Shown: positions 6,466-8,305 of the stretch, one piece after another
Position numbering within the stretch: the stretch's first letter is position 1
Layout of the letters: every line of letters begins with the position of its first letter
Source of the DNA: Octopus sinensis
Taxonomy: Eukaryota
Length of the DNA stretch: 39,527 nt
Reading direction: 5' to 3'
NCBI RefSeq assembly: GCF_006345805.1
Contig: NW_021829873.1
Location: forward strand, 1 to 39,527
Program-made: the position numbers

Positions 6466-8305
6466 GTGTGTGTGTGTGTGTGTGTGTATAGATAGATATA
6501 CATATATGCTAACACGTGTATATATACACGTAAATAAGTATAAAAATGTATGTATTAATACTAGTACATGCACATATACATACATCTCTGCGGGACTTCA
6601 TAATTTGCCAGAAAATAATGGATCGTGCCAAGATTTTGCTGCTACTTCTAGCATGTAGAAATTACCTGTTAAAGCGTAATTTTCTATTTTGAAATATCTA
6701 TATATTTACTACCCACAAGGGGCTACACATAGAGGGGACAAACAAGGACAGACAAAGGGATTAAGTCGATTACATCGACCCTAGTGCGAAACTGGTACAT
6801 ATATATATTCTTTTATTCTTTTCTTTTACTTGTTTCAGTCATTTGACTGCGGCCATGCTGGAGCACCGCCATTAGTCGAGCAACTCGACCCCGGGACTTA
6901 TTCTTTTGCAATCCCAGTACTTATTCTATCGGTCTCTCTTGCCGATCGGGGACATAAGCACACCAGCATCGGTTGTCAAGCAATGCTAGGGGACAAACAC
7001 AGACACACAAATACACACTCAGTGGGACTGAACCCGCAACCATGTGGTTGGTAGACAAGCTACTTACCACACAGCCACTCCTGCGCCTATATATATGTGT
7101 ATATATATATATATATATAATAATATATATATATAATATATATATATTTATATAATAGAAATATTAAAATAACTAAGTCTCTCTAAAAGAGAACAGCGGC
7201 AGCGTTCCCGGAAAATAATAGTTATCGCCATACTAATATGGCATTCTAATAAAAATAAGAAAAAAGCTGTCCGCTTATTAGCTCCATGAGGCCATCGCCT
7301 TAAGTTAGCTATTTGATACACAAACTGTATCCATATAACCTTCGAACAAGGGAGGTCAGTCGCTCCACACTACTTGACCGGCAGCTACAGACGCGTTTCG
7401 AGGTATTGCCCCTTTTCAATGCAGCGTAGCCAGCCAGTAGGTGTCGCTTCCGACAATCTCTGTTCGATGGTTTTATTTACCTAGTTTCGGTGAAATACAT
7501 CCACTTGTTTTCAATAATAGAAATATTAAAATAACTAAGTCTCTCTAAAAGAGAACAGCGGCAGCGTTCCCGGAAAATAATAGTTATCGCATACTAATAT
7601 GGCATTCTTATAAAAATAAGAAAAAAGCTGTCCGCTTATTAGCTCCATGAGGCCATCGCCTTAAGTTAGCTATTTGATACACAAACTGTATCCATATAAC
7701 CTTCGAACAAGGGAGGTCAGTCGCTCCACACTACTTGACCGGCAGCTACAGACGCGTTTCGGGGTATTGCCCCTTTTCAATGCAGCGTAGCCAGCCAGTA
7801 GGTGTCGCTTCCGACAATCTCTGTTCGATGGTTTTATTTACCTAGTTTCGGTGAAATACATCCACTTGTTTTCAATAATAGAAATATTAAAATAACTAAG
7901 TCTCTCTAAAAGAGAACAGCGGCAGCGTTCCCGGAAAATAATAGTTATCGCCATACTAATATGGCATTCTTATAAAAATAAGAAAAAAGCTGTCCGCTTA
8001 TTAGCTCCATGAGGCCATCGCCTTAAGTTAGCTATTTGATACACAAACTGTATCCATATAACCTTCGAACAAGGGAGGTCAGTCGCTCCACACTACTTGA
8101 CCGGCAGCTACAGACGCGTTTCGGGGTATTGCCCCTTTTCAATGCAGCGTAGCCAGCCAGTAGGTGTCGCTTCCGACAATCTCTGTTCGATGGTTTTATT
8201 TACCTAGTTTCGGTGAAATACATCCACTTGTTTTCAATAATAGAAATATTAAAATAACTAAGTCTCTCTATTTATATATATATTATATATTTATATATAT
8301 GTAAT

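What the first reader, a model, noticed from the sequence alone, without database searches (positions are those of the whole stretch)
7152..8270. Tandem 362-bp array with one hammerhead ribozyme per unit: candidate retrozyme / circular-RNA-generating element
Seen: three almost identical 361-362-bp non-coding units plus a 34-bp partial unit in (TA)n, each with a minus-strand type I hammerhead fold. Established: minimal type I hammerheads with a palindromic helix III occur in Penelope-like element pLTRs and in metazoan non-LTR retrozymes, whose tandem transcripts self-cleave to monomers that can circularise. Inference: a minus-strand transcript would release 362-nt (8112-7751) and 361-nt (7750-7390) monomers. 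No Penelope RT or GIY-YIG ORF is present in the window, so the element would be mobilised in trans. The near identity of the units suggests a young insertion, possibly copied by rolling reverse transcription of a circle. I cannot tell whether this family is already catalogued.
Basis: partly seen in the sequence, partly recalled or inferred. Interest (0 to 1): 0.9.

Follow-up and report, generated by a model that had tools for sequence, protein, structure and literature searches.

The report
Octopus tandem repeat with hammerhead ribozymes
A short non-coding repeat in an octopus genome carries one self-cutting RNA motif per copy and looks like an ordinary member of the known animal "retrozyme" class of circle-forming mobile elements, with an unusual but previously documented change in the ribozyme core.

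Summary
Window 7152-8270 holds 3.1 copies of a 361-362-bp non-coding unit, 99% alike, inside (TA)n. Each unit has a type I hammerhead fold on the minus strand. It has a 6-bp helix I, a 4-bp helix II and a helix III of one A-U pair closing a palindromic CGCG loop. Cleavage would follow C17 at 8113, 7751 and 7390.

It reads UUGAAAA instead of CUGANGA, so the C3-G8 pair is replaced by U3-A8. No Rfam hammerhead model detects the motif. The covariation is known in natural hammerheads and such variants cleave in vitro.

A descriptor allowing both cores matched 7 of 268,093 shuffles of the unit. The minus-strand monomer folds far better than shuffles (z -7.6).

A neighbouring LINE fragment is 98% identical to an Octopus sinensis protein. 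No Penelope RT or GIY-YIG domain was found in 29 of 74 ORFs scanned.

Verdict: a new member of the metazoan non-LTR retrozyme class. Cleavage, transcription, circles and the mobilising enzyme remain untested.

The parts
7152..8270 (-). Tandem array: 3 full units plus a 34-bp partial unit. The functional (hammerhead) sense is the minus strand.
   Evidence: TRF period 362, 3.1 copies, 99% matches; BLASTN self-hits
7152..7513 (-). Unit 1 (362 bp). It differs from unit 3 at 2 positions. One is C->U in the 3' strand of helix II, which turns a G-C pair into G.U.
7514..7874 (-). Unit 2 (361 bp), with a 1-nt deletion relative to unit 3
7875..8236 (-). Unit 3 (362 bp), used as the reference unit
8237..8270 (-). 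34-bp partial unit. In minus sense it is the last 34 nt of a unit placed at the 5' end of the array, and it may correspond to the 'tail' of PLE-type insertions.
   Evidence: tail described in papers read
8107..8148 (-). Hammerhead 1: helix I GCUGCA/UGUAGC, core UUGAAAA, helix II GGGG-CAAUA-CCCC, GAAA, helix III A-CGCG-U, C17 at 8113. An 8-bp extension of helix I beyond a UAC/U internal loop spans 8159-8098.
7745..7786 (-). Hammerhead 2, identical to hammerhead 1; C17 at 7751
7384..7425 (-). Hammerhead 3, with a G.U wobble in helix II; C17 at 7390
7751..8112 (-). Predicted 362-nt self-cleavage monomer: linear MFE -124 kcal/mol (z -7.63); circular MFE -119.0, 64% of bases paired
7390..7750 (-). 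Predicted 361-nt monomer; circular MFE -111.1 kcal/mol
8370..8417 (+). Inverted copy of the array's right-hand junction: 26 nt of the unit (8392-8417) plus 22 nt of TA-rich flank (8370-8391). It mirrors 8245-8294 except for a 2-nt indel.
   Evidence: I13
7088..7151 (.). Left (TA)n flank, the presumed target microsatellite. Its last 11 nt (7141-7151) recur at 8284-8294, which could be a target-site duplication (inconclusive).
8271..8391 (.). 121-bp spacer, 98% A+T, between the array and the inverted copy

Best explanation
This is a metazoan non-LTR retrozyme array in an Octopus genome. It is a non-coding, SINE-like retroelement whose 362-nt unit carries one type I hammerhead ribozyme on the minus strand.

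Shown by computation:
- the array and its boundaries;
- the three-helix hammerhead fold in every unit;
- a core that is canonical at 11 of 13 conserved positions, with the other two (3 and 8) changed together so that the C3-G8 pair becomes U3-A8;
- a very stable, mostly paired monomer RNA in which helices I and II form.

Inferred from the known biology of the class:
1. The minus strand is transcribed across several units.
2. Helix III is only one A-U pair closing a palindromic CGCG loop, so single motifs cut poorly. Two motifs pair through ACGCGU/ACGCGU into a double hammerhead.
3. [quoted passage not shown]
4. A host RtcB-type tRNA ligase closes them into circles. In the circle a lone hammerhead stays largely inactive.
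5. A reverse transcriptase supplied in trans copies a circle or an uncleaved multimer into AT-rich DNA. Penelope-like elements are the published candidate. This would give a multi-unit insertion whose ends do not coincide with the ribozyme cut site.
For: Array.

Motif: the descriptor hits only the 3 units, on the minus strand only.

Chance: 0 of 6,000 unit shuffles; 7 of 268,093 unit shuffles for the strict descriptor and 65 of 268,093 for the relaxed one; 4 strict sites in 1,585 window shuffles.

Architecture: it equals the published canonical metazoan type I HHR, with helix I 6 bp, helix II 4 bp and helix III 1-2 bp plus a 2-4-nt palindromic loop that acts as a dimer (PMC4209133, passages). 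It also equals axolotl HHR_Amex1, which has a 1-bp helix III with a palindromic tetraloop. That motif cleaved 6% in one hour as a monomer and efficiently as a dimer (PMC7229834, section read).

Core: U3-A8 is a documented natural covariation with in vitro activity (PMC3088659, passages). About 1,300 U3-A8 motifs were reported in Schistosoma PLEs. The G10.1-C11.1 pair is kept in all units, and the only substitution inside a hammerhead keeps pairing as G.U.

Folding:
- Minus-strand monomer MFE -124 kcal/mol, z -7.63, 0 of 100 shuffles as good.
- Circular MFE -119.0 for the minus strand against -103.1 for the plus strand.
- In the 1,119-nt array transcript, helix I pairs have probability 0.94-1.0 and helix II pairs 0.90-0.98 in all three motifs.
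- Two hammerhead domains cofold into the double hammerhead, with a 6-bp intermolecular helix III and helix I in trans, at -60.9 against 2 x -27.4 kcal/mol.

Class features: GC 41.4%; no ORF above 73 aa; three consecutive units with a complete motif and motif MFE of -12.9, -12.9 and -9.9 kcal/mol. This meets the working criterion of Li et al. 2026 (section read; energies).

Insertion scars resembling those described for PLEs: an AT-rich or (TA)n target, tandem copies, a 34-bp terminal extension and an adjacent inverted terminal copy.
Against: - No Rfam hammerhead model reports the motif at any threshold tried.
- Two invariant core positions differ, and the activity of U3-A8 in this particular context is untested.
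- The 42-nt motifs are not energetically unusual: z -1.86, -1.86 and -0.89, with 9, 9 and 33 of 200 shuffles folding as well. The 71-nt domain gives z -2.57.
- The MFE contains a 2-bp pairing between core U4-G5 and the helix III loop that is incompatible with the active fold.
- Intramolecular helix III between neighbouring units has probability 0 in the nested model of the whole transcript.
- The plus strand also folds well (z -5.78), so part of the structure signal is strand-symmetric.
- Only one locus and three sequence differences are available. Two of the three differences break predicted pairs outside the hammerhead, so no conservation or covariation test was possible.
- There is no evidence of transcription.
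- LINEs with (TA)n tails lie in the same window, so a (TA)n target does not single out a PLE.
- The inverted copy includes 22 nt of flank, so it may be a DNA-level fold-back rather than an RT product.
Confidence: 0.68

Rival explanations
1. Dead relic. The repeat descends from a retrozyme but is now only a small satellite. The hammerhead is inactive because two invariant core nucleotides have mutated, and the near-identity of the units reflects recent DNA-level tandem duplication or homogenisation.
For: No Rfam hit. Only one locus is visible. Two of the three differences between units break predicted pairs. There is no expression evidence.
Against: The two core changes are exactly the pair that restores a Watson-Crick 3-8 pair, and that variant is active in vitro and recurs in nature. 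All other conserved positions and all helices are intact in all three units, and the only change inside a motif is G-C to G.U. The ends of the array lie in (TA)n with a terminal extension and an inverted copy, which looks like an insertion rather than a local duplication.
Confidence: 0.15
2. Fragment of an autonomous Penelope-like element. The units are tandem pseudo-LTRs left after loss or truncation of the RT/GIY-YIG ORF, not a separate non-autonomous family.
For: PLEs carry hammerheads in their pLTRs. They insert as partial tandems with inverted 5'-truncated copies and 30-40-bp tails, and often into (TA)n. Retrozymes are reported to be related to pLTRs.
Against: No RT of PLE type and no GIY-YIG domain was found in 29 of 74 ORFs scanned. 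The RTs present have relatives that carry AP-endonuclease domains, so they are LINEs. The three units are complete and uninterrupted. The hammerhead has the canonical architecture reported for retrozymes, not the min-HHR of PLEs, which lacks a helix III loop and has a 6-bp helix II with a bulge.
Confidence: 0.1
3. Same element but a different engine. The RNA is copied by one of the (TA)n-tailed LINEs of this genome, like a SINE, rather than by a PLE. This rival concerns only the mobilisation step.
For: Two copies of a LINE family (12726-13987 and 35791-37061, 94% identical) stay homologous into a (TA)n tail. A third LINE also ends in (TA)n. In minus sense the array's 3' end runs straight into (TA)n.
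Against: Published co-occurrence and sequence relatedness link animal retrozymes to PLEs. The 34-bp extension and inverted terminal copy match the PLE insertion signature. The unit shares no sequence with the LINE 3' ends in the window.
Confidence: 0.2
4. Chance. This is an ordinary tandem duplication that happens to contain a hammerhead-like string.
For: Relaxed cores raise false positives, as Perreault et al. warn. The strict descriptor still occurs at about 0.0025 sites per shuffled window (4 in 1,585), so a whole-genome scan would meet chance hits.
Against: Only 7 of 268,093 shuffled units match. The real motif exceeds the thresholds, with a 6-bp helix I plus an 8-bp extension and the CGCG palindrome. 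It sits on the strand that folds better, and in a repeat of the size, GC content and structure of the known class.
Confidence: 0.03

Closest known systems
Metazoan non-LTR retrozymes (Cervera and de la Pena 2020, PMC7229834; coral, mussel and axolotl examples)
   Same: Tandem non-coding units of 150-450 bp, one type I hammerhead per unit, GC below 50%, no LTR, and a highly self-paired monomer RNA. The mussel units (350-390 bp) are the same size, and molluscs are a known host phylum.
   Different: The core is U3-A8 instead of C3-G8. The host is a cephalopod, for which my searches found no report. Expression and circles are not shown here, and only one three-unit locus was seen.
Amphibian satellite-type hammerhead (axolotl HHR_Amex1 and newt satellite repeats)
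   Same: Helix III is a single base pair closed by a palindromic tetraloop, which implies weak cleavage as a monomer and efficient cleavage as a dimer. The repeat is about 330 bp.
   Different: Different sequence and host. The conserved loop 1-loop 2 contacts of the amphibian motif were not tested here, and the core pair 3-8 differs.
Penelope-like element min-HHRs, including the U3-A8 variant of Schistosoma Cercyon elements (Cervera and de la Pena 2014, PMC4209133)
   Same: The U3-A8 covariation, the palindromic helix III region, action as a dimer and association with retroelements. The insertion features (AT-rich or (TA)n target, tail, inverted copy) resemble those of PLEs.
   Different: No PLE ORF is linked. 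Helix I (6 bp), helix II (4 bp, no bulge) and the helix III loop are of the canonical type, not the min-HHR type.
Plant LTR retrozymes and viroid-like circular RNAs with hammerheads
   Same: Self-cleavage of multimeric transcripts, ligation to circles and a strongly paired RNA.
   Different: Those carry type III hammerheads, and the plant retrozymes also have LTRs, PBS and PPT, are 600-1000 nt long and depend on Gypsy RT. None of that is seen here.

Membership tests
Metazoan non-LTR retrozyme | Short tandem repeats of about 150-450 bp | tested here: met
   361-362-bp units, 3.1 copies; definition read
Metazoan non-LTR retrozyme | A type I hammerhead motif in each unit, with at least two consecutive units carrying a complete motif and motif MFE below -5 kcal/mol (Li et al. 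2026) | tested here: met
   3 of 3 units match the descriptor. Motif MFE is -12.9, -12.9 and -9.9 kcal/mol. Criterion read. My descriptor allowed the U3-A8 core; I do not know whether theirs would accept it.
Metazoan non-LTR retrozyme | GC content below 50%, non-coding, no LTRs | tested here: met
   GC 41.4%. The longest stop-to-stop ORF in the array is 73 aa. There are no terminal repeats other than the units themselves. PBS and PPT motifs were not searched for explicitly.
Metazoan non-LTR retrozyme | Monomer RNA predicted to be stable and highly self-paired | tested here: met
   MFE -124 kcal/mol, z -7.63. Circular MFE -119.0 with 64% of bases paired.
Metazoan non-LTR retrozyme | Expressed as linear and circular RNA of unit length | not testable with these tools
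Metazoan non-LTR retrozyme | Many dispersed genomic copies, co-occurring with hammerhead-bearing PLEs | not testable with these tools
   No eukaryotic genome collection is on hand. There is only one locus in the window. The prokaryotic genome-contig scan gave 0 hits.
Hammerhead ribozyme, type I | Conserved core: C3 U4 G5 A6 N7 G8 A9, G12 A13 A14, A15.1-U16.1, H17 | tested here: inconclusive
   11 of 13 positions are canonical. Positions 3 and 8 are U and A, a documented compensatory covariation. The strict consensus is not met.
Hammerhead ribozyme, type I | Three helices around the core, with helix I open and G10.1-C11.1 present | tested here: met
   Helix I 6 bp, helix II 4 bp starting with G-C, helix III one A-U pair plus a CGCG loop. 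Pair probabilities are 0.90-1.0 for helices I and II. Helix III is predicted only between two copies.
Hammerhead ribozyme, type I | Match to the curated Rfam hammerhead covariance models | tested here: not met
   No hammerhead match at gathering score or at E<=10 in 1.5 kb or in 91 nt.
Hammerhead ribozyme, type I | Site-specific self-cleavage | not testable with these tools
   This needs in vitro transcription.
Penelope-like element (pLTR with min-HHR) | Linked ORF with a telomerase-like RT and a GIY-YIG endonuclease | tested here: not met
   Pfam on 29 of 74 ORFs of >=90 aa found no GIY-YIG. The RVT_1 ORFs have relatives carrying PF03372 and PF14529, so they are LINEs. The other 45 ORFs were not scanned.
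Penelope-like element (pLTR with min-HHR) | Min-HHR architecture: no helix III loop, long helix II with a bulged base | tested here: not met
   Helix II is 4 bp without a bulge and helix III has a tetraloop; definition.
Penelope-like element (pLTR with min-HHR) | Insertion signature: AT-rich or microsatellite target, partial tandem, 30-40-bp tail, adjacent inverted truncated copy | tested here: inconclusive
   All four features are present in form. However, the inverted copy includes flank, TA tracts are self-complementary, and (TA)n-tailed LINEs share the target.

The most novel reading that the evidence does not exclude
This would be a live cephalopod retrozyme family whose canonical-architecture hammerhead runs on a U3-A8 core. 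Curated covariance models do not see it here, and consensus-core (CUGANGA) descriptors would presumably miss it too. Censuses of animal retrozymes would then be missing whole families and host groups. The locus also keeps the scars of its integration: a (TA)n target, a 34-nt terminal 'tail' and an inverted terminal copy starting at the same nucleotide. These are the signature of Penelope-like element integration. That would give locus-level structural evidence for the so far only inferred claim that PLE machinery copies retrozyme RNA.
Probability: 0.3. Interest if true: 0.55.

Novelty: new member of a known kind. Interest (0 to 1): 0.35.

Why it matters
Animal retrozymes are an abundant ribozyme-based route to circular RNA, but their mobilising enzyme has only been inferred. 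If this element is active, it would do three things:
- extend the class to cephalopods;
- show that a canonical-type retrozyme hammerhead can use the U3-A8 core, which standard searches miss;
- offer a compact locus whose junctions can be compared with other genomic copies to test PLE against LINE mobilisation.

If it is inactive, it is one more small satellite. Either way it is not a new kind of system.

Tried and rejected
Rfam. I ran the whole window at gathering score, 7000-8500 at E<=10 and 8085-8175 at E<=10. None returned a hammerhead or any other ribozyme. The microRNA-like and pestivirus-like rows lie in TA/TG-rich flanks, and I treat them as low-complexity artefacts.

Alternative register. 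I considered a hammerhead register starting at CUG (CUGCAUUGA). It gives no acceptable core and was rejected, and the descriptor finds only the U3-A8 register.

Plus strand. The descriptor finds nothing there, and no Rfam family matches.

Related copies elsewhere.
- The only collection open was prokaryotic genome contigs, and one pattern scan gave 0 hits.
- The phage, plasmid and E. coli collections were not searched because they are irrelevant to an animal repeat.
- No eukaryotic genome, Dfam or Repbase resource was available. Copy number, conservation of the motif and linkage to PLEs therefore stayed unchecked.

tRNA scan. ARAGORN found no tRNA in the window.

Target-site duplication. An 11-mer abutting the left end recurs 13 nt beyond the right end. 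In a TA microsatellite I count this as inconclusive.

Literature.
- Four searches that included octopus, cephalopod or mollusc terms and one look into PMC10886601 found no paper describing hammerheads or retrozymes in octopus or other cephalopods.
- This covers only the held library.
- PMC1986816 (Przybilski and Hammann 2007, on exchanges of the 3-8 pair) is not held. I rely on how PMC3088659 and PMC3884650 cite it.

Not used. Structure prediction, complex prediction and protein atlas tools were not used because the element is non-coding.
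Full report
**Observation.** The window carries, at 7152-8270, a tandem array with period 362, 3.1 copies and 99% matches (TRF). BLASTN of the third unit against the window places units at 7152-7513, 7514-7874 (361 bp, one deleted base) and 7875-8236. 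It also places a 34-bp partial unit at 8237-8270. The only other significant match is a 26-nt inverted copy at 8392-8417; the other 9 rows are 11-14-nt matches at E = 4.8. The three units differ at three positions in all. The array is embedded in (TA)n. It has 41.4% GC and no stop-to-stop ORF longer than 73 aa.

**The hammerhead.** On the minus strand each unit reads as follows:
- helix I, GCUGCA paired with UGUAGC;
- a seven-nucleotide core strand, UUGAAAA;
- helix II, GGGG-CAAUA-CCCC;
- GAAA;
- helix III, a single A-U pair closing the palindromic loop CGCG;
- C17.

Helix I continues beyond a UAC/U internal loop into eight further pairs. A descriptor that I wrote asks for helix I >=5 bp, helix II >=4 bp, GAAA, a small hairpin or palindromic helix III, U-H, and either the canonical core or the U3-A8 core. 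It finds exactly these three sites on the minus strand and nothing else on either strand of the window. C17 falls at 8113, 7751 and 7390.

**Chance.** The descriptor matched 0 of 6,000 dinucleotide shuffles of the unit. In a longer run the strict form matched 7 of 268,093 shuffles. A relaxed form (helix I >=4 bp, helix II >=3 bp) matched 65 of 268,093, of which 18 had the canonical core and 47 the covariant core. In 1,585 shuffles of the whole window there were 4 strict and 45 relaxed sites. A motif like this is thus very unlikely in a given 362-bp unit, although a genome-wide scan would meet some chance hits. What makes this case convincing is the motif together with a tandem repeat of the right kind.

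**The core is not canonical.** The consensus is CUGANGA and here it is UUGAAAA, so position 3 is U and position 8 is A. This explains why Rfam finds nothing. There were no matches at gathering score in the window. No hammerhead appeared among 18 matches at E<=10 in 7000-8500. None appeared in a 91-nt search with lax filters.

C3 and G8 form a Watson-Crick pair in the active structure (PMC3884650, passages). [quoted passage not shown] Cervera and de la Pena found the same covariation in Schistosoma Cercyon PLEs, with about 1,300 hits (PMC4209133, passages). In the anole PLE, single changes at positions 3 or 8 kill cleavage and the swapped pair partly restores it (PMC11167929, section read).

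All other conserved positions, including G10.1-C11.1, are canonical in the three units. The only substitution inside a motif turns a helix II G-C pair into G.U. I therefore read the core as a compensated variant, not as decay. This rests on the literature and not on an assay of this sequence.

**Architecture and dimer.** The helix lengths equal the 'canonical' metazoan type I motif described in PMC4209133. That motif has helix I of 6 bp, helix II of 4 bp and helix III of 1-2 bp capped by a 2-4-nt palindromic loop. It is too weak to cleave as a monomer but active as a dimer in tandem repeats. Axolotl HHR_Amex1 has the same one-pair helix III with a palindromic tetraloop. It cleaved 6% in an hour as a monomer and efficiently as a dimer (PMC7229834, section read).

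Here two 72-nt hammerhead domains cofold into exactly that double hammerhead. It has a 6-bp intermolecular ACGCGU/ACGCGU helix III and helix I formed in trans. Its energy is -60.9 kcal/mol against -27.4 for each domain alone.

Against this, in the nested model of the whole 1,119-nt transcript the helix III pairing between neighbouring units has probability 0. The 42-nt motifs are also not energetically unusual, with z of -1.86, -1.86 and -0.89.

**The monomer RNA.**
- The minus-strand monomer has an MFE of -124 kcal/mol against a mean of -88.4 for shuffles (z -7.63, 0 of 100 as good).
- The plus strand gives -107.8 kcal/mol (z -5.78).
- Folded as circles the values are -119.0 (115 pairs, 9 of them G.U, 64% of bases paired) and -103.1.
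- In the array transcript, helices I and II of all three motifs have pair probabilities of 0.90-1.0.

This is the stable, highly self-paired RNA described for retrozyme circles. The hammerhead strand is the better-folding one.

**Organism and neighbours.** The ORF at 11398-12549 (minus) is 98% identical over 83% of its length to an Octopus sinensis protein. Relatives of it carry AP-endonuclease domains, so it is a LINE and not a PLE. Pfam on 29 of the 74 ORFs of >=90 aa found:
- RVT_1 in four ORFs: 10275-11288 minus, 11398-12549 minus, 12620-12958 plus and 35778-36077 plus;
- a PIF1 helicase at 1457-2752;
- a Mos1-type HTH at 38178-38453;
- no GIY-YIG domain.

The other 45 ORFs, mostly in simple repeats, were not scanned. 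Two copies of one LINE family (12726-13987 and 35791-37061, 94% identical) remain homologous into a (TA)n tail. (TA)n-tailed LINEs are therefore a possible alternative engine, and a (TA)n target is not specific to PLEs.

**Junctions.** In minus sense the array begins with the last 34 nt of a unit and ends at a unit end that runs into (TA)n. On the other strand, 121 bp away, lies a 26-nt copy of the same terminal segment that starts at the same nucleotide. The similarity extends 22 nt into the TA-rich flank. The arms 8245-8294 and 8370-8417 are identical except for a 2-nt indel. The 22-mer occurs nowhere else in the window (pair I13).

Published PLE insertions show partial tandems, an adjacent inverted 5'-truncated copy, a 30-40-bp 'tail' and a bias for (TA)n or AT-rich DNA. 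The tail corresponds to the stretch between two internal RT start sites, and the enzyme cleaves and extends both strands (PMC8557442, passages; PMC11167929, section read). The locus fits this picture in form. Because the inverted copy includes flank, and TA tracts pair with themselves, a DNA-level fold-back is equally possible. I treat the PLE signature as suggestive only.

The ends of the array lie 158 nt upstream and 238 nt downstream of the nearest cut sites. The template was therefore not a linear cleaved monomer. A circle copied more than three times round and an uncleaved multimer are both possible. The in vitro PLE work found unprocessed RNA to be the main substrate.

**Comparison with what is known.** The element meets the sequence-level definition of metazoan non-LTR retrozymes (PMC7229834; review PMC7761336, passages). 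It also meets the working criterion of Li et al. 2026, provided a descriptor accepts the U3-A8 core. Molluscs (mussel, 350-390-bp units) are already known hosts. My searches of the held library found no report for octopus or other cephalopods. Supplements could not be read.

It is not a PLE by the tests possible here, and it fails the Rfam thresholds for the hammerhead families. I file it as a new member of a known kind. It has two points of modest interest: a canonical-type retrozyme hammerhead with the U3-A8 core, which standard searches miss, and insertion scars that could bear on which enzyme mobilises animal retrozymes.

**What remains open.** Self-cleavage, transcription of the minus strand, circular RNA, genomic copy number, conservation of the motif among copies and the mobilising enzyme are all untested. 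No eukaryotic genome collection was available.

Noticed in passing
window 6900-7087 (minus strand): A SINE-like element with a tRNA-like head abuts the left (TA)n tract. ARAGORN calls no tRNA there. I recognised it only from recall as resembling an octopus SINE and did not test this.
   Followed up: no
window 10275-12824 (minus strand): A broken LINE, with RVT_1 in two ORFs in different frames (10275-11288 and 11398-12549). It is 98% identical to Octopus sinensis LOC115219705, and its relatives carry AP-endonuclease domains. Its 3' end runs into (TA)n at 10040-10119.
   Followed up: partly
window 12726-13987 and 35791-37061 (plus strand): Two copies, 94% identical, of a second LINE family. Each has a 43-bp tandem repeat near the 3' end and a (TA)n tail, and the flanks differ after the tail.
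   Followed up: partly
window 1457-2752 (plus strand): A 431-aa open frame with PIF1 helicase and Pif1 2B domains (E 1.5e-37), probably a Helitron-type fragment.
   Followed up: no
window 38178-38453 (plus strand): A fragment with the HTH_48 domain of Mos1/mariner transposases (E 1.4e-17).
   Followed up: no
window about 16400-27800: A segmental tandem repeat of about 4.4 kb. The same 100-bp, 24-bp and 43/44-bp TRF consensus units recur at 17848, 22219 and 26641, at 16664, 21032, 25391 and 27674, and at 20524 and 24905.
   Followed up: no
window 28035-34548: A 5.5-kb minisatellite of a 15-bp unit (370 copies), then a 34-bp repeat (24.9 copies, 33564-34405), then a degenerate interstitial telomere-like (CCCTAA)n tract at 34407-34548.
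   Followed up: no
window 5993-6189 and 38969-39167: Two dimers of a related 99-100-bp unit at opposite ends of the window.
   Followed up: no
window 8418-8492 and 7012-7160: Rfam rows below threshold (mir-297, mir-1277, pestivirus 3' UTR and others) fall in TA/TG-rich low-complexity sequence and are probably artefacts.
   Followed up: no
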